Assembly: GCF_016428595.1 (NCBI RefSeq)
Contig: NZ_JAELVQ010000006.1
Span: forward strand, 149,876 to 181,875
Direction: 5' to 3'
DNA: 32,000 nucleotides
Origin: Snuella sedimenti
GTDB lineage: Bacteria > Bacteroidota > Bacteroidia > Flavobacteriales > Flavobacteriaceae
Shown: positions 22,572 to 27,628 of the stretch, piece after piece
Position numbering within the stretch: the first letter of the stretch is position 1
Layout: every line of letters begins with the position of its first letter
Translations under genes and position numbers: made by a program
The notes under the pieces: generated by a model
What the model was told of the DNA's origin: nothing
Seen by the model: the letters and a program-made list of their open reading frames with translations, nothing else
Database searches by the model: none

Positions 22572-24605
22572 ATGGACAACAAATGCATACTTGTAATCAC
22601 AATTATTTTAAGCTTGTTTAGCTGTGCTAAATCCAATTCTAATTACCAAAAAACTAAACCTCCTACAAAGCACCTCAAGACATCAAACAATATTTTAAAT
22701 TATAAAATCACGCCTAAACAACCTCAAGATAAATCGGGTTTAATGTTTTCCGATCAAGGTACGTGGTTTGCATATGGTTTAAACAATAGTACACCTAATT
22801 ACGGTGGGTTCTCAGGCCCCTATTTAATGACACAGGACAATGGCACATGGCTAACCCCTTGTTTAACACAGCTCCACCTTGGCAATGGCTCGGACAACAA
22901 AAACCTTATCGATTGGAAAAACGATCTTGTGAGCCAAAACAGCTACGCAAGTCATTTGGAACAAACCTATAAAAACGAAACCATAAAGGTTAAACTCGTG
23001 TTGGTATTTCTATCGGGACATACTGCTTTACAACAATTTACAATTACCAATCTATCGAACACACCTATTACTATTAATTCGCATTTTACAGGACATTTAT
23101 TTGACACCGGTATTACCATCTCCGAAGAAGACAACTACATTAAGTTACAATCAAAAAAAAGCAATGCTATAGGATACACGCAATTTGTAAACGAATTAAA
23201 TGCCCTTTTTGTTAAAGATAGCAGTTCATATCAGGCCAATAACCAAACTTACATTTTAAAACCCAATGAACTCAAAAAAACAGTTGTATCCCATACATTC
23301 ATCTTTCCCGAATACAATTGGGAAAATGAAAAAAAGCGCATCGCAACTATCGATTTCGATTCGGTTTTAAACACCCGTAAAACTGAAAAAAACAGACAAC
23401 TAAAATTATTAATAGACAACAGAAAACCTCAATTTAATGATTCTGCTTACACTCAGGTTTTAGCGAAAGCACATCTCACATTACAAAACAACTGGCGTAT
23501 CCCTGCTGGCGAAATAAAACATGCTGGTCTTTTCCCTAGTTACCATTACAAATGGTTTAACGGTTTCTGGTCCTGGGATAGCTGGAAACACGCTGTTGGA
23601 CTCACGTATTATAATACCAATTTGGCTAAAGACCAAATACGCACTATGTTCGACTTTCAAAGCGACGATGGCTTTATTGTAGATTGTATTTATAGGGATA
23701 CCCTAATTGAAAAACACAACTATAGGGACACCAAGCCCCCGCTTGCTGCTTGGGCAGTAGCAAAGATTTATGAAAAAGATAAGGTCTTGGATTTTGTAAA
23801 AGAATTGTATCCCAAACTTAAAAAATACCATTATTGGTGGTACTCAAAACGGGATCACGACCAAGATGGTTTATGTGAATACGGTTCAACCGATGGCTCT
23901 CTAATTGCTGCCAAATGGGAAAGTGGCATGGACAATGCCATTCGTTTCGATGACTCAAAAATCCTAAGAAATGCCGAAGGCGCTTATTCGCTAAATCAAG
24001 AAAGTGTTGATTTAAACGCCTATTTGTATGCCGAAAAATTATTTCTTGTAACTTTAGCTAAAGCTCTTGGAAACAAAGATGATATACATCAATTTAAGGC
24101 TGAGGCTAAAATCTTAAAACTAAAAATTCAACAGCAATTTTACGACAGTAAAGATGGCTGGTTTTACGACACTAACCTTGAAGGCTCTAAATTTATAAAA
24201 GGTGAAGGGAGTGAAGGCTGGACAGCACTTTGGGCTCATGCCGCTACACAGGAACAGGCAGAAGCCGTAAAGAATAAAATGATGGACCCAACGAAGTTTT
24301 ACACTAAAGTCCCTTTTCAAACCATGAGCGCCGACCACCCGAAGTTCAACCCTTTAAAAGGCTATTGGCGCGGCCCAAATTGGTTGGACCAAGCTTATTT
24401 TGGTGTTAAAGGGCTTCGTAATTATGGCTTTAATGATGATGCCGACAAAGCTACGATTCAAATTTTAAAAGGCGCCAATGGCATTATGAAAAAAGGACCA
24501 TCCATTCGTGAAAATTACCACCCAATAACTGGAGAAGGTTTAAATGCTCAAAACTTTAGCTGGAGCGCCGCACATGTTATTATGTTATTAATGAACGACC
24601 AATGA
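22572..24605 (+). CDS. GH63-family (E. coli YgjK-like) alpha-glucosidase, lipoprotein
   Basis: Start taken at ATG 22572 (MDNKCILVITIILSLFSC|AKSN lipobox); 677 aa. An N-terminal beta-rich domain is followed by an (alpha/alpha)6-type region. The latter is colinear with my recollection of YgjK: FNGFWSWDSWKHA, TKPPLAAWAV, YHYWWYSKRDHDQDGLCEYG, WESGMDNA, LNQESVDLNAYLY, YWRGPNWLDQAYFGVKGLRNYGF, IRENYHPITGEG..NFSWSAAH. The motifs holding the two YgjK catalytic carboxylates (GxD and xEN) appear retained. Confidence 0.85.
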   Translation: MDNKCILVITIILSLFSCAKSNSNYQKTKPPTKHLKTSNNILNYKITPKQPQDKSGLMFSDQGTWFAYGLNNSTPNYGGFSGPYLMTQDNGTWLTPCLTQLHLGNGSDNKNLIDWKNDLVSQNSYASHLEQTYKNETIKVKLVLVFLSGHTALQQFTITNLSNTPITINSHFTGHLFDTGITISEEDNYIKLQSKKSNAIGYTQFVNELNALFVKDSSSYQANNQTYILKPNELKKTVVSHTFIFPEYNWENEKKRIATIDFDSVLNTRKTEKNRQLKLLIDNRKPQFNDSAYTQVLAKAHLTLQNNWRIPAGEIKHAGLFPSYHYKWFNGFWSWDSWKHAVGLTYYNTNLAKDQIRTMFDFQSDDGFIVDCIYRDTLIEKHNYRDTKPPLAAWAVAKIYEKDKVLDFVKELYPKLKKYHYWWYSKRDHDQDGLCEYGSTDGSLIAAKWESGMDNAIRFDDSKILRNAEGAYSLNQESVDLNAYLYAEKLFLVTLAKALGNKDDIHQFKAEAKILKLKIQQQFYDSKDGWFYDTNLEGSKFIKGEGSEGWTALWAHAATQEQAEAVKNKMMDPTKFYTKVPFQTMSADHPKFNPLKGYWRGPNWLDQAYFGVKGLRNYGFNDDADKATIQILKGANGIMKKGPSIRENYHPITGEGLNAQNFSWSAAHVIMLLMNDQ

Positions 24606-27600
24606 ATTACACTAATTTAAAAATAACGGTTCAACAGGCCGAAAACATCCTTTTCGACTGTTTTAATATTCAAGGTAAAGCCTCGGAACTCCCTGGTGAA
24701 CTCGATTTTAATTTTAGAATTAAAGTTGATCATGGAACTGGCTATATTTTAAAAATATCACGTCCAGAAGAAAACGAAAATTATCTCGATTTCCAACAGC
24801 AACTACTACAGCATGTTGAATCTCACAACGAACATTTAATTGCACCAAAGGTTATTAAAGATAAAAATGGTCTCGCCATTTCCGAAATAATGGACGATTT
24901 AGGCAGAATACGTAAAGTACGTTTACTTGCTTGGGTTTCTGGCCGTGTATGGAGCAGTGTAAACCCTCAATTAGATGATTTGCGTTATAGCTTAGGAGCG
25001 CAATGTGGTTTATTAACCAAAGCCCTACAAGGATTTGATCATCCACAAGCACATCGTGCATTTGAATGGGATGTAGCCCAATCACTGTGGACAAAAGCTC
25101 ATATTGATTTATTCTCGCAGGAAGAAAAAGAAATACTTTCCTCTTTTCAGAATCAATTTGAAAATTCTCAAGAAAGGTATTCAAGATTACGCAAAGCAGT
25201 CGTTCATAATGATGCAAATGACAATAACGTAATAGTTTCCAAGGATTTAACAAACCCCAAAGTTAAGGCGGCCATAGATTATGGCGATGCAATATACACG
25301 CAAATAATAAACGATTTAGCTATTAGCTGTGCTTATTGTATTATGGGACATAACGATCCGCTAGAAGCCGCTTTACCTATTGTAAAAGGATACCATGCTT
25401 CATTTCGTTTAAAAGAAAACGAGTTAGCCCACCTATACATTGCTATTGCCATGCGATTGGTGATTTCTGTCACAAAATCTGCAATTAATAAAATTAAAGA
25501 GCCCGAAAACAAGTACTTACTAATTAGTGAGAAACCAGCTTGGGACGTCTTAAAAAAATGGCACAATATTAGTTCGGATTTTGCACATTATAGTTTTAGA
25601 AATGCCTGTGGGTTTTTGGCACATCCAAATGAAGCATTATTTAAGAGATGGAGCTCTAAACAAACCTTTAACCTTTCCGATTTATTTCCAACGGTAAATA
25701 AAATGGACGTCCATCATCTCGACTTAAGTGTTTCCAGTAAATGGGTTGGACATCAAGAAGCGTTTAATGATTTAGACTTATTTCAATTTAAAATGGATCG
25801 CCTACAAAAACAAGTCCCCAACAAAATTATTGCCGGCGGCTATTTAGAACCCCGGGCTTTATACACCTCAACAGAATATGACAAAATTGGGAACTATGGG
25901 CATGAAAGCAGAACCATTCATTTAGGCATTGATTATTGGCTACCCCATAACACACCTGTACATGCTTTGTTGGATGGAGAAGTTGTTACTGCTGTGAATG
26001 ATTCGGGAGTAAAAGAATATGGTGGTTTAGTCATTTTAAAACACACTACGAAAGACTTTCTTTTCTATACCCTTTACGGTCATTTATCAGTTGCAAGTGC
26101 TACCAAACACTCCATAGGCGATGTGATTAGAAAAGGTGAAAAAATAGGTGAATTAGGACATCCAAATGAAAATGGTAATTGGGTGCCTCACCTCCACTTT
26201 CAAGTCATGCTATCTATGTTAGACTATGTTATTGATTTTCCCGGCGTAATCTATTTTAGACAAATAGACACTTGGAAGCACATTTGCCCAAACCCTAACT
26301 TGTTGTTTAAGTCTGAAACTCTTGATAAAGTGGCATATGCTTCAAATGAAGACTTAATCCGCTACCGAAAGCAGCATTTAGGAAAAAGCCTGAGCCTACA
26401 ATACAAAATTCCTATTAAAATGGTTCGCGGTGCAGGGCAATACCTCATGGATCAATACGGCAAAAAATATCTGGACACTGTAAACAACGTAGCCCATGTT
26501 GGCCATGAGCATTATACTGTTGTAAAAGCTGGACAAGAGCAAATGGCACTTATCAACACCAATTCAAGGTACTTACACGAAAACATTAATACTCTAACTA
26601 AAGAATTAATAGAAACGTTACCCCAAGAACTTAATGTTTTACACTTTGTGAATTCGGGTAGCGAAGCCAATGAATTGGCCATACGAATGGTAAAAGCAAA
26701 TACGGGAGAACGCGACATCATCGCTTCAGAAGTAGGCTACCACGGCAATTCAAACATGTGTATTGATATTAGCTCTTATAAATTTGATGGCAAAGGAGGC
26801 CATGGTGCACCTGAACACACACATATTTTTCCGCTTCCAGATAAATTTAGGGGCAAATACAGGGGGGAACATGCTGGTAAGAATTACGCCAAAGAAGTTC
26901 AAAAGCTAATTGATAACATTCATAAAAAAGGACGTGGTGTGGGCGCTTTTATTATAGAACCCATAATAAGTTGTGGAGGACAGATAGAGCTCCCTGACGG
27001 TTTTTTAGCTGAAGCCTATAAAAAAATAAGGGCTGCAGGTGGGCTGTGTATTTCGGACGAAGTGCAAGTAGGCTGCGGACGAATGGGCAAAACCTTTTGG
27101 GGTTTTCAACAGCACAATGTTATTCCAGATATTGTAACCATTGGTAAACCTTTAGGCAACGGACACCCCATTGCGGCTGTGGCCTGTACACAAGAGGTTG
27201 CCAATAGGTTTGCTAACGGTATGGAATATTTTAACACCTTTGGAGGCAACCCTGTATCCTGTGCCATTGCTACCGAAGTTTTAAGAACCATAAAAAGAGA
27301 AAAACTACAAGAAAACGCTTTAAAGGTTGGCACCTATTTAAAAGATGAATTAAAAAAATTATCTGAGGTATTCCCAATCATTGGAGATGTACGCGGACAG
27401 GGCTTGTTTTTAGGCTTTGAATTGGTAGACAGTAACATGAACCCTCTGCCAGCCCAAGCTGACTATCTCGCTAACCGAATGAAGTACCACGGTATTTTAA
27501 TGAGTACCGATGGCCCAGATTATAATGTATTAAAAATTAAACCGCCTATGGTATTTACTAAAGAAAATGCTGAAGCATTGATTTTCTATCTAAAAAAAAT

Positions 27601-27628
27601 ATTTGCTGAAGATTTCATGCAACTTTAA
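24602..27628 (+). CDS. Tri-domain fusion: hydroxylysine-kinase-like aminoglycoside-phosphotransferase-fold kinase + M23 (LytM-type) peptidase domain + class-III PLP enzyme of the AGXT2L/ETNPPL phospho-lyase subfamily
   Basis: 1008 aa with no signal peptide. The ATG overlaps the GH63 stop (ATGA, 24602-24605). Kinase domain: Brenner motif [13 protein letters not shown] (H202 at 25205) and IDYGD. M23 domain: HLGID (H440/D444) and PHLHF (H530/H532) zinc-ligand motifs. PLP domain: [54 protein letters not shown] (Lys849 at 27146-27148), [15 protein letters not shown] and [12 protein letters not shown]. By recollection these closely match human ETNPPL/PHYKPL. Confidence 0.88.

What the first reader, a model, noticed from the sequence alone, without database searches (positions are those of the whole stretch)
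24602..27628. Single 1008-aa polypeptide joining an APH-fold kinase to an AGXT2L-type PLP phospho-lyase, with catalytic motifs of both intact
Seen in sequence: the kinase has HxDxxxxN (HNDANDNN) and the metal-binding IDYGD motif. The PLP domain has the Schiff-base lysine in [14 protein letters not shown] and the C-terminal [12 protein letters not shown] block. By recollection these distinguish the ETNPPL/PHYKPL phospho-lyase subfamily from ordinary omega-transaminases.

Inference: fusing two consecutive enzymes implies channelling of a phospho-amino-alcohol intermediate. The bacterial substrate of this fusion class has, as far as I know, not been established experimentally. Here it sits in a glycan-degradation operon rather than an amino-acid operon.
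Basis: partly seen in the sequence, partly recalled or inferred. Interest (0 to 1): 0.7.

Follow-up and report, generated by a model that had tools for sequence, protein, structure and literature searches.

The report
Kinase–peptidase–phospholyase enzyme in collagen-sugar operon
A marine flavobacterium carries an already catalogued three-part enzyme (amino-alcohol kinase, M23 peptidase-like domain, PLP phospho-lyase) between two sugar-cleaving enzymes, an arrangement that most likely lets it strip and break down glycosylated hydroxylysine from collagen, a pathway not yet described in bacteria.

Summary
The 1008-aa ORF at 24602-27628 (+) is real and every quoted motif is present.

The protein is 100% identical to an annotated Snuella sedimenti protein. 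It matches NCBIfam PRK06148 end to end, so the fusion is a known, widespread and uncharacterised family. By my recollection, it is the bacterial fusion that led to the 2012 discovery of human hydroxylysine kinase and the phospho-lyases.

The PLP domain clearly belongs with phospho-lyases: ETNPPL 444 bits, Arthrobacter phospholyase 305, next hit 168.

New here is the context. The order YgjK-type GH63 glucosidase, fusion, GH2 beta-galactosidase is collinear in 22 of 43 loci across many Flavobacteriaceae genera, usually beside SusC/SusD. Nineteen loci also carry hydroxyproline-catabolic genes. In two Chloroflexi-type loci, a 3-hydroxyproline-dehydratase-like gene directly follows the fusion.

Best reading (about 0.55): a collagen glycopeptide locus. 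The glycosidases remove Glc-alpha1,2-Gal from hydroxylysine, and the fusion phosphorylates hydroxylysine and eliminates phosphate and ammonia to give 2-aminoadipate semialdehyde. No substrate was tested. Channelling could not be assessed.

The parts
24602..27628 (+). Three-domain ORF, 1008 aa, no signal peptide: APH kinase, M23 peptidase-like domain and class-III PLP phospho-lyase. 100% identical to an annotated Snuella sedimenti protein.
24602..25726 (+). Kinase module (Pfam APH aa 28-248 plus a helical extension to about aa 375). Catalytic loop HNDANDNN at nt 25205-25228, metal-binding IDYGD at nt 25274-25288.
25916..26209 (+). Peptidase_M23 domain (aa 439-536). HLGID at nt 25919-25933, YGHLS at nt 26075-26089, HLHFQ at nt 26189-26203. 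Best solved relative is the S. aureus LytM Gly-Gly endopeptidase.
26405..27601 (+). Aminotran_3 fold, phospho-lyase subfamily. Schiff-base K849 lies in [14 protein letters not shown] (nt 27128-27169).
22566..24605 (+). GH63 / YgjK-like alpha-glucosidase with a lipoprotein signal (LFSC). Equivalents of the YgjK catalytic residues D324, D501 and E727 are conserved. The stop codon overlaps the fusion's start codon.
27603..30788 (+). GH2 LacZ-type beta-galactosidase with a lipoprotein signal (ILGC). The likely true start is the ATG at 27642.
21766..22329 (-). ECF sigma factor, divergent from the GH63-fusion-GH2 operon.
20500..21645 (-). FecR-type anti-sigma factor.
17052..20414 (-). SusC-like TonB-dependent transporter.
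15504..17024 (-). SusD-like binding lipoprotein.
12094..15429 (-). FG-GAP / ASPIC-UnbV repeat lipoprotein. A homolog lies beside SusD in three other loci (L001, L004, L026). Role unknown.
10641..11960 (-). Saccharopine dehydrogenase-family protein. Tentative link only: it could take 2-aminoadipate semialdehyde onward. Not seen within 10 kb of the fusion in any other locus.
30830..30865 (.). 14-bp-stem hairpin with T-runs, between the end of GH2 and the convergent DUF1508 gene. Probable end of the operon.

Best explanation
The gene encodes a cytoplasmic three-domain enzyme of the PRK06148 family. It is the catabolic core of a SusC/SusD-type utilisation locus for collagen-derived glycopeptides that carry Glc-alpha1,2-Gal-beta1-O-5-hydroxylysine.

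Proposed sequence of events:
1. Glycopeptides released by secreted collagenases are taken up through SusC/SusD. An ECF sigma / anti-sigma pair controls the locus.
2. The lipoprotein GH63 (YgjK-type) removes the alpha-1,2-glucose.
3. The lipoprotein GH2 beta-galactosidase removes the galactose and exposes the 5-hydroxyl of hydroxylysine.
4. In the cytoplasm, the APH-fold domain phosphorylates that hydroxyl.
5. The PLP domain then eliminates phosphate and ammonia and yields 2-aminoadipate 6-semialdehyde. This is the same chemistry as animal HYKK plus PHYKPL.
6. The product enters the lysine/saccharopine/aminoadipate route.
7. The M23 domain, whose metal-site residues are conserved, probably frees hydroxylysine from short X-Hyl-Gly peptides, or binds such peptides.

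Shown here: the domain identities, the intact motifs, membership of the phospho-lyase branch, and the conserved synteny with GH63, GH2, SusC/D and hydroxyproline-catabolic genes.

Inferred: the substrate (hydroxylysine), the order of the steps, the cell compartments, and the role of the M23 domain.
For: Domains and motifs. Family: PRK06148 matches end to end at 1121 bits. All 120 closest homologs, at 75-81% identity across Flavobacteriaceae genera, have the same three domains. More than 100 clusters (50% identity level) of roughly 1000-aa homologs exist across phyla.

Phospho-lyase branch: ETNPPL 444 bits and A1RDF1 305 bits, against 168 bits or less for decarboxylases, racemases and transaminases.

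Kinase: an APH-fold kinase nearest to amino-alcohol and hydroxy-amino-acid kinases, namely amicoumacin kinase, homoserine kinase II and aminopropanol kinase.

Context in 43 loci:
- GH63 in 25, GH2 in 27, both in 22 and collinear with the fusion, SusC/D in 15.
- Hydroxyproline-pathway genes in 19.
- Xaa-Pro or prolyl peptidases in 15.
- At least one of these classes in 36.

Identity of the neighbours:
- 4-hydroxyproline epimerase, 586 bits against a cutoff of 376.
- Pyr2C/Pip2C reductase, 375 bits against a cutoff of 322.
- A 3-hydroxyproline-dehydratase-like gene.
- D-amino-acid dehydrogenase, a DHDPS-family protein, an aldehyde dehydrogenase, M24 prolidase and aminopeptidase P.
- Galactokinase, aldose epimerase and an SSF transporter.

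Independent recurrence: in Ktedonobacterales L051 and in the 3-Mb JGI contig L053 (no taxon given), a 3-Hyp-dehydratase-like Pro_racemase gene directly follows the fusion.

GH63: best match is E. coli YgjK at 244 bits, with the catalytic residues conserved. A YgjK structure holds galactose in subsite +1 (PMC7263609). By my recollection, YgjK makes and hydrolyses Glc-alpha1,2-Gal (Miyazaki 2013).

E. coli also links a GH2 (ebgAC) with ygjK on one strand.

Chemistry and product: HYKK and PHYKPL feed the aminoadipate semialdehyde / saccharopine pathway (PMC5200902; PMC9283133). Glc-alpha1,2-Gal-beta-Hyl is the collagen glycan (PMC8626586).
Against: - No substrate was tested.
- The closest solved PLP relative is the phosphoethanolamine enzyme. 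PHYKPL and HYKK sequences could not be obtained for comparison, because the AlphaFold database library was unavailable.
- Much of the synteny comes from related Flavobacteriaceae, so it is not statistically independent.
- Seven of 43 loci have none of the collagen-related neighbours.
- Four distant homologs show no clear link: L050 (Rhodothermales), L052 (Gemmatimonadales), L054 and L055.
- Planctomycete two-domain versions sit beside a glycosyltransferase and a beta-helix protein instead.
- No hydroxylysine or Gal-Hyl inner-membrane transporter was identified in the window.
- The saccharopine dehydrogenase is not conserved next to the fusion elsewhere.
- The specificity of the GH63 is extrapolated from a distant homolog, and partly from memory.
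- The role of the M23 domain is speculation. About 10-15% of homologs have lost its metal ligands.
Confidence: 0.55

Rival explanations
1. The fusion is an ethanolamine kinase plus O-phosphoethanolamine phospho-lyase. It yields acetaldehyde, ammonia and phosphate. Its position between the two glycosidases reflects a different substrate (for example phosphoethanolamine-decorated glycans or lipid head groups), or is only historical.
For: The best solved relative of the PLP domain is human ETNPPL, at 444 bits and about 53% identity by eye. The second-best solved relative, the bacterial A1RDF1 (5g4i), is deposited as a phospholyase; by my recollection it was assayed on phosphoethanolamine (Cuetos 2016).
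Against: ETNPPL and PHYKPL are close paralogs, and only ETNPPL has a solved structure, so the top hit cannot tell the two apart. Nothing in 43 loci points to ethanolamine metabolism: there are no eut genes and no acetaldehyde dehydrogenase next to the fusion. Hydroxyproline genes, prolyl peptidases and galactose-use genes recur instead. An M23 peptidase domain has no obvious role for ethanolamine.
Confidence: 0.12
2. The chemistry is as proposed (phosphorylation of an amino alcohol, then PLP-dependent elimination), but the substrate is another hydroxylated amine. It would be released from a non-collagen Glc-Gal glycoconjugate or peptide, for example 1-amino-2-propanol, another hydroxy-amino acid, or a peptide-bound residue from an invertebrate or algal glycoprotein.
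For: The kinase is about equally distant from amicoumacin kinase, homoserine kinase and aminopropanol kinase, at 46-63 bits. Kinase-plus-phospholyase modules exist for several amino alcohols. Several distant homologs lack any collagen context, so the family may cover more than one substrate.
Against: The combination of a YgjK-type alpha-glucosidase, a beta-galactosidase, the 3-Hyp and 4-Hyp pathways and Xaa-Pro peptidases fits collagen specifically. Hydroxylysine is the only known amino acid that carries Glc-alpha1,2-Gal (PMC8626586; PMC8537180).
Confidence: 0.2
3. The PLP domain is a genuine transaminase, or the protein mainly serves a cell-wall or regulatory function through its M23 and kinase domains (it has been annotated 'RdoA Ser/Thr kinase / GABA aminotransferase-like').
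For: Database names from NCBI and JGI. The M23 domain resembles peptidoglycan endopeptidases such as LytM.
Against: There is a 140-280 bit gap between the phospholyases and all transaminases, racemases and decarboxylases. The protein has no signal peptide, so the M23 domain cannot reach peptidoglycan. Scores against the peptidoglycan-hydrolase NCBIfam models are 20-31 bits, against cutoffs of 300-900. The gene lies in a conserved operon with glycosidases.
Confidence: 0.05

Closest known systems
NCBIfam PRK06148 / PRK06149: bacterial APH - Peptidase_M23 - class-III aminotransferase fusion proteins. By my recollection these are the 'bi- or tri-functional' bacterial homologs mentioned by Veiga-da-Cunha et al., J Biol Chem 2012;287:7246.
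   Same: Same three-domain order and length. The PRK06148 model is matched over positions 9-1011 of 1015, at 1121 bits. Hundreds of homologs share the same architecture.
   Different: The score is 7 bits below the curated cutoff of 1128. No member of the family has a published substrate. The embedding between GH63 and GH2 in a SusC/D locus is not described in any paper I could find.
Animal hydroxylysine pathway: HYKK (AGPHD1) plus PHYKPL (AGXT2L2), and the paralog ETNPPL (AGXT2L1, PDB 6TOR)
   Same: An APH-fold kinase followed by a class-III-fold PLP ammonio-phospho-lyase. The PLP domain is about 53% identical (counted by eye) to ETNPPL over 421 residues, with all PLP-binding residues aligned.
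   Different: The animal enzymes are separate polypeptides and have no M23 domain. The bacterial gene lies in an operon with glycosidases.
Arthrobacter aurescens A1RDF1 phospholyase (PDB 5G4I; Cuetos et al. 2016)
   Same: A bacterial class-III transaminase homolog with phospholyase activity, scoring 305 bits.
   Different: It is a stand-alone domain of about 446 aa. By my recollection it was assayed on O-phosphoethanolamine.
E. coli YgjK (GH63) and the ebgAC-ygjIJK locus
   Same: The window's upstream gene is YgjK-like (244 bits), with the catalytic Asp/Asp/Glu conserved. E. coli also places a GH2 beta-galactosidase and YgjK on one strand.
   Different: E. coli has no kinase-lyase gene there. 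The window's GH2 is only 29% identical to EbgA.
Aminopropanol kinase (PDB 6EF6) of the mycobacterial aminoacetone-utilisation microcompartment
   Same: An APH-fold amino-alcohol kinase. By my recollection it works with a class-III-fold phospholyase.
   Different: Only 46 bits and 14% identity. It is a separate protein in a microcompartment context, with a different substrate.

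Membership tests
NCBIfam PRK06148 (three-domain fusion family) | Full-length HMM match at or above the curated cutoff | tested here: not met
   1121.3 bits against a cutoff of 1128, covering model positions 9-1011 of 1015. It misses by 7 bits, so this is a borderline member by score.
NCBIfam PRK06148 (three-domain fusion family) | APH, Peptidase_M23 and Aminotran_3 in that order on one polypeptide of about 1000 aa | tested here: met
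   Pfam places them at aa 28-248, 439-536 and 602-1000. All listed homologs have the same three Pfam domains.
ETNPPL/PHYKPL-type PLP ammonio-phospho-lyases (class-III aminotransferase fold) | Class-III fold with the Schiff-base lysine and PLP-binding residues | tested here: met
   Aminotran_3 E 5e-78. K849 aligns with the lysine in the GKPxGNGHP block of ETNPPL and A1RDF1. K849 is kept in 125 of 126 homologs, D819 in 126 of 126 and Q822 in 125 of 126.
ETNPPL/PHYKPL-type PLP ammonio-phospho-lyases (class-III aminotransferase fold) | Closer to characterised phospho-lyases than to any transaminase, racemase or decarboxylase | tested here: met
   6tor 444 bits and 5g4i 305 bits, with the next hit at 168 bits. 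Foldseek gives the same order.
ETNPPL/PHYKPL-type PLP ammonio-phospho-lyases (class-III aminotransferase fold) | Catalyses 1,2-elimination of phosphate and ammonia without an amino acceptor | not testable with these tools
   Needs an enzyme assay.
Hydroxylysine kinase (HYKK/AGPHD1) type | APH-fold kinase with the catalytic HxDxxxxN loop and the DxGD metal site | tested here: met
   HNDANDNN and IDYGD are present. D204, N209 and D226 are kept in 126 of 126 homologs.
Hydroxylysine kinase (HYKK/AGPHD1) type | Specifically related to HYKK rather than to other APH-family kinases | not tested
   No HYKK sequence or structure was reachable: the afdb50 library was unavailable and the 2012 paper is not held. 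The relationship rests on my recollection of that paper.
Hydroxylysine kinase (HYKK/AGPHD1) type | Phosphorylates the 5-hydroxyl of hydroxylysine | not testable with these tools
   Needs an enzyme assay. Supported only by genomic context.
Homoserine kinase type II (ThrB-alt) | Score at or above the curated cutoff of the equivalog models | tested here: not met
   PRK05231 scores 45.5 bits against 271. TIGR00938 scores 41.7 bits against 255.9.
M23 (LytM/lysostaphin) metallopeptidases | HxxxD and HxH zinc-site motifs plus the catalytic histidine | tested here: met
   HLGID, YGHLS and HLHFQ are present. They align with HYGVD and PHVHFQ of LytM. The residues are invariant in 47 close homologs and kept in 105-116 of 126 distant ones.
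M23 (LytM/lysostaphin) metallopeptidases | Exported enzyme that acts on peptidoglycan cross-bridges | tested here: not met
   It is an internal domain of a protein without a signal peptide. Peptidoglycan-hydrolase NCBIfam models score 20-31 bits against cutoffs of 300-900.
Bacteroidota polysaccharide/glycan utilisation locus (PUL) | Adjacent SusC/SusD pair with CAZymes and a dedicated regulator | tested here: met
   SusC at 17052-20414, SusD at 15504-17024, ECF sigma and FecR, GH63 and GH2. The same set is conserved in 15 loci.

The most novel reading that the evidence does not exclude
The GH63 - fusion - GH2 - SusC/D cluster is the first bacterial pathway for collagen's glycosylated hydroxylysine. 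It would contain three things not yet assigned. The first is a beta-galactosidase that cleaves Gal-beta-O-hydroxylysine, an activity with no assigned enzyme as far as I know. The second is a physiological role for YgjK-type GH63 enzymes, and by extension for the E. coli ebg-ygj locus. The third is a bacterial hydroxylysine kinase / phosphohydroxylysine phospho-lyase whose M23 domain adds a third consecutive step by releasing hydroxylysine from X-Hyl-Gly peptides.
Probability: 0.4. Interest if true: 0.7.

Novelty: new member of a known kind. Interest (0 to 1): 0.5.

Why it matters
Collagen is the most abundant animal protein and a major nitrogen and carbon source for marine and host-associated Bacteroidota. 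Bacterial routes for its hydroxyproline are known, but none is known for its glycosylated hydroxylysine.

If the reading is right, this locus does four things:
- It gives the long-uncharacterised PRK06148 fusion family a substrate.
- It names candidate enzymes for deglycosylating Glc-Gal-Hyl. These could be useful for collagen glycoproteomics and for assays of the bone-turnover markers Gal-Hyl and Glc-Gal-Hyl.
- It suggests a natural function for YgjK-type GH63 enzymes, and possibly for the classic 'evolved beta-galactosidase' locus of E. coli.
- It provides a natural three-enzyme fusion for studying coupling between consecutive steps.

If the reading is wrong, the gene is still an ordinary member of a catalogued family.

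Tried and rejected
- **2012 JBC paper.** I tried to read Veiga-da-Cunha et al. by PubMed id and two PMC ids. It is not held, so its content is cited from memory and from papers that cite it.
- **Kinase domain against PDB.** phmmer with the single sequence gave no hit at E<=1. Only a profile of 21 diverse homologs gave hits.
- **Full-length AlphaFold model.** Mean pLDDT was 66.6 and the PLP domain was mostly below 50. It is unusable for asking whether the active sites face each other.
- **Kinase-only AlphaFold model.** pLDDT was 68, with the catalytic loop unresolved. It served only for a coarse Foldseek ranking.
- **AlphaFold database search for HYKK/PHYKPL.** The library was not installed.
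- **Saccharopine dehydrogenase and PfkB kinase.** I considered them part of the conserved system. I rejected them as conserved members because neither appears within 10 kb of the fusion in any of the other loci. They are kept only as a tentative local link.
- **Homoserine kinase.** Rejected on score.
- **Cell-wall M23 hydrolase.** Rejected because there is no export signal and the scores are low.
- **Prior descriptions.** Searches for GH63 with hydroxylysine, a collagen PUL, or a bacterial hydroxylysine kinase found nothing relevant.
- **Promoter and terminator scan.** No more sites than in shuffled sequence, apart from the hairpin after GH2.

Full report
**1. Observation.** The window holds one ORF at 24602-27628 on the + strand. 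It starts with ATG and encodes 1008 aa.
- HNDANDNN at aa 202-209
- IDYGD at aa 225-229
- [14 protein letters not shown] at aa 843-856, containing K849
- [12 protein letters not shown] at aa 975-986

Pfam assigns three domains, not two: APH at aa 28-248 (E 5e-20), Peptidase_M23 at aa 439-536 (E 2e-16), and Aminotran_3 at aa 602-1000 (E 5e-78). The M23 domain carries HLGID, YGHLS and HLHFQ. These are the HxxxD and HxH zinc-site motifs of LytM and lysostaphin. Its best solved relative is the S. aureus LytM glycyl-glycine endopeptidase, with HYGVD and PHVHFQ aligned. The N-terminus has no hydrophobic signal sequence, so the protein is cytoplasmic.

**2. A catalogued family.** The protein is 100% identical to a Snuella sedimenti (Flavobacteriaceae) protein annotated 'aminotransferase class III-fold PLP-dependent enzyme'. 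NCBIfam PRK06148 ('hypothetical protein', 1015 positions) is matched over positions 9-1011 at 1121.3 bits. That is 7 bits under its cutoff of 1128. PRK06149 scores 674 bits.

All 120 closest homologs are 75-81% identical across many Flavobacteriaceae genera and share the three Pfam domains. An exhaustive HMMER search found 2831 cluster representatives at E<=1e-30. More than 100 of these are clusters of roughly 1000-aa end-to-end homologs at 33-62% identity. There are also forms of about 785 aa. The one such form I scanned, a 774-aa planctomycete homolog, lacks M23. A search seeded with a distant member returned Chloroflexi, Acidobacteria, Gemmatimonadales and Rhodothermales proteins with the same architecture.

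In 126 diverse full-length sequences:
- Kinase residues D204, N209 and D226 are invariant.
- PLP residue K849 is kept in 125 of 126.
- The M23 residues H440, D444, H494, H530 and H532 are kept in 105-116 of 126.

So the M23 site is under selection in most lineages but can be lost.

By my recollection, the abstract of Veiga-da-Cunha et al. (J Biol Chem 2012;287:7246) says that bacterial homologs of AGXT2L1/2 form 'bi- or tri-functional proteins' with an APH-family kinase. It says this clue led to the identification of human hydroxylysine kinase (AGPHD1/HYKK), phosphohydroxylysine phospho-lyase (AGXT2L2/PHYKPL) and phosphoethanolamine phospho-lyase (AGXT2L1/ETNPPL). I could not read that paper. 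Papers I could read cite it:
- for the lyase activities (PMC9283133; PMC8154272)
- as a comparative-genomics discovery (PMC5714238)
- in a passage on gene fusions that reveal enzyme functions (PMC12138971)

The fusion as such is therefore not new.

**3. What each catalytic domain is.**

PLP domain: phmmer against PDB gives human ETNPPL (6tor) at 444 bits, about 53% identical by eye over 421 residues. The Arthrobacter phospholyase A1RDF1 (5g4i) scores 305 bits. After a large gap come dialkylglycine decarboxylase, racemases and transaminases, at 168 bits or less. Foldseek with the rough model gives the same order. The domain clearly belongs to the phospho-lyase branch.

The NVLKIKPP block is shared with both phospholyases. 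By my own knowledge, similar blocks occur in ordinary class-III enzymes. The score gap is the real evidence, not that motif.

Kinase domain: the single sequence finds nothing in PDB. A profile of 21 diverse homologs finds amicoumacin kinase (62.8 bits), type-II homoserine kinase (56.3 bits) and the microcompartment aminopropanol kinase 6ef6 (46.1 bits), ahead of the aminoglycoside kinases. Foldseek agrees. Homoserine-kinase equivalog models score 42-46 bits against cutoffs of 256-271, so it is not ThrB.

The domain is thus a distinct APH-fold kinase whose nearest characterised relatives phosphorylate hydroxyl groups of amino alcohols or hydroxy-amino acids. I could not compare it with HYKK because the AlphaFold database library was unavailable.

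**4. The surroundings in the window.**
- Upstream, overlapping by 4 bp, lies a 679-aa lipoprotein with MGH1-like_GH, Trehalase, YgjK_N and GH63 signatures. Its best solved relative is E. coli YgjK at 244 bits. The equivalents of the catalytic residues D324, D501 and E727 are conserved, in WSWDSW, SGMDN and IRENY.
- Downstream, overlapping or 14 nt away depending on the start codon, lies a LacZ-type GH2 beta-galactosidase lipoprotein. It scores 764 bits to 6s6z and 547 bits to LacZ, and is 29% identical to EbgA.
- A strong hairpin follows GH2.
- Divergently transcribed are an ECF sigma factor, a FecR anti-sigma factor, SusC, SusD and an FG-GAP/ASPIC lipoprotein. These are followed by a saccharopine-dehydrogenase-family gene and a PfkB kinase.

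**5. The context is conserved.** A scan of one genome per species gave 49 loci. I mapped the window's proteins onto them and clustered all their ORFs. Of 43 loci that carry the fusion:
- 25 have the GH63.
- 27 have the GH2.
- 22 have both, in the same order and orientation. The genera include Hwangdonia, Gelidibacter, Polaribacter, Maribacter, Flagellimonas, Lutibacter, Wocania, Sinomicrobium and Urechidicola.
- 15 have SusC/SusD next door.

The other recurrent neighbours are informative:
- A Pro_racemase-family gene occurs in 19 loci. One type is a 4-hydroxyproline epimerase (586 bits, cutoff 376). The other, directly upstream of GH63, is 3-hydroxyproline-dehydratase-like (364 bits, below the cutoff of 540).
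- A Pyr2C/Pip2C reductase (375 bits, cutoff 322).
- A D-amino-acid-dehydrogenase-type flavoenzyme, a DHDPS-family protein and an aldehyde dehydrogenase. Together with the epimerase these make up the classical 4-hydroxyproline route.
- M24 prolidase, aminopeptidase P, and S28/S37 and M20 peptidases.
- A PD40-amidohydrolase of about 1090 aa, inserted between the fusion and GH2 in Polaribacter-type loci.
- Galactokinase, aldose 1-epimerase and an SSF transporter.

In 36 of 43 loci, at least one of GH63, GH2, a hydroxyproline gene or a prolyl peptidase lies within 10 kb.

These Flavobacteriaceae loci share ancestry, so the counts are not independent. However, in a Ktedonobacterales genome and in a 3-Mb JGI contig (no taxon given), a 3-Hyp-dehydratase-like gene directly follows the fusion, with gaps of 230 and 18 nt.

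Other distant homologs show no clear link: Rhodothermales and two others. A Gemmatimonadales locus shares only DUF4440 and GNAT genes. The planctomycete two-domain form sits with a GT4 glycosyltransferase and a beta-helix protein.

**6. Interpretation.** Hydroxyproline (3- and 4-), Xaa-Pro bonds and glycosylated hydroxylysine are the chemical hallmarks of collagen. The collagen glycan is Glc-alpha1,2-Gal-beta1-O-5-hydroxylysine (PMC8626586; PMC8537180). A YgjK structure holds galactose in subsite +1 (PMC7263609). By my recollection, YgjK synthesises and hydrolyses Glc-alpha1,2-Gal (Miyazaki et al., FEBS J 2013).

An alpha-glucosidase of that type plus a beta-galactosidase would expose the 5-hydroxyl of hydroxylysine. 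That is exactly the group an HYKK-like kinase must phosphorylate before a PHYKPL-like lyase can produce 2-aminoadipate semialdehyde. That product is shared with the saccharopine pathway (PMC5200902).

This explains why a cytoplasmic amino-alcohol kinase/lyase is co-transcribed between two lipoprotein glycosidases. The M23 domain, a relative of Gly-Gly endopeptidases, could release hydroxylysine from X-Hyl-Gly remnants, since hydroxylysine in collagen is always followed by glycine. This last point is speculation.

I put the whole scheme at about 0.55. The generic chemistry (amino-alcohol phosphorylation followed by PLP-dependent elimination) I put at about 0.85.

**7. Rivals.**
- Ethanolamine / phosphoethanolamine (0.12). 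It is favoured only by the ETNPPL top hit, which cannot discriminate because PHYKPL has no solved structure.
- Another hydroxylated amine from a different glycoconjugate (0.2).
- A true transaminase or a cell-wall function (0.05). This is contradicted by the score gap, the missing export signal and the operon context.

**8. What could not be settled.** Channelling could not be assessed. The full-length AlphaFold model had mean pLDDT 66.6, with the PLP domain mostly below 50. The alignment was shallow in diversity and the domain is normally a dimer. Direct similarity to HYKK and PHYKPL was not tested. No hydroxylysine transporter was identified. The saccharopine dehydrogenase is not conserved next to the fusion.

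**9. Novelty and score.** The protein is a new member of a known but biochemically uncharacterised family. The fusion idea was published in 2012. The conserved embedding in a GH63/GH2/SusCD locus next to hydroxyproline genes appears in none of the papers I could search. The resulting hypothesis of a bacterial Glc-Gal-hydroxylysine pathway is directly testable.

Interest is 0.5. The object is ordinary, but the prediction is specific and useful. It would also touch on the unknown natural roles of YgjK and possibly of the E. coli ebg locus.

Noticed in passing
L056 (E. coli K-12 NC_000913.3, 3221466-3231239): ebgR-ebgA-ebgC-ygjI-ygjJ-ygjK lie head to tail on one strand. This links the 'evolved' GH2 beta-galactosidase, whose natural substrate is by my knowledge a classic open question, with a putative transporter and the GH63 YgjK. 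It is the same GH2 plus YgjK-type pairing as in the window, and hints that both loci act on a Glc-alpha1,2-Gal-beta-X glycoside.
   Followed up: partly
window 1937-9045 (-): A second, paralogous ECF sigma (8524-9045), FecR (7150-8316), SusC (3722-7054) and SusD (1937-3607) set lies a few kb from the first. SusC identity to the first set's homologs in other loci is about 35%. Its target is unknown.
   Followed up: partly
window 1-1842 (-): A 614-aa ORF runs off the window start, downstream of the second SusD. It has no Pfam match at all.
   Followed up: no
window 12094-15429 (-); L001, L004, L026: An 1111-aa FG-GAP / ASPIC-UnbV repeat lipoprotein (bacterial relative of cartilage protein CRTAC1) lies next to SusD. 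It is conserved in that position in several related loci. Its role in the locus is unknown.
   Followed up: no
L006, L007, L008, L012, L027, L030, L031, L043, L048: A gene of about 1090 aa encoding PD40 beta-propeller plus amidohydrolase domains is inserted directly after the fusion gene, before GH2 where GH2 is present. It resembles Xaa-Pro dipeptidases only weakly (99 bits, cutoff 500).
   Followed up: partly
16 loci (e.g. L005, L010, L013, L021) and L052: A small DUF4440 protein of about 143 aa recurs just downstream of the fusion/GH2 genes in Flavobacteriaceae. DUF4440 and a GNAT acetyltransferase also appear near the fusion in a Gemmatimonadales contig.
   Followed up: no
L039-L046 (Planctomycetes: Mariniblastus, Pirellulaceae): A two-domain version of 774-789 aa (APH plus Aminotran_3, no M23; 51-53% identical) sits in a conserved block with a 1200-aa beta-helix protein and a GT4 glycosyltransferase. 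This is a different context and possibly a different substrate.
   Followed up: partly
alignment of 126 homologs: About 10-15% of full-length three-domain homologs have replaced one or more M23 metal or catalytic residues (for example H440 to R/Y, H494 to G/N), while the kinase and PLP residues stay invariant. The M23 activity seems dispensable in some lineages.
   Followed up: partly
window 30895-31278 (-): A 127-aa protein with two DUF1508 repeats (E 2e-42) converges on the end of the operon. The following 149-aa ORF (31371-31820) has no Pfam match.
   Followed up: no
window 9732-11960 (-): A saccharopine-dehydrogenase-family gene (no NCBIfam hit) and a generic PfkB sugar kinase follow the FG-GAP gene on the same strand. 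The link to aminoadipate semialdehyde is attractive, but neither gene is found near the fusion in the other loci.
   Followed up: partly
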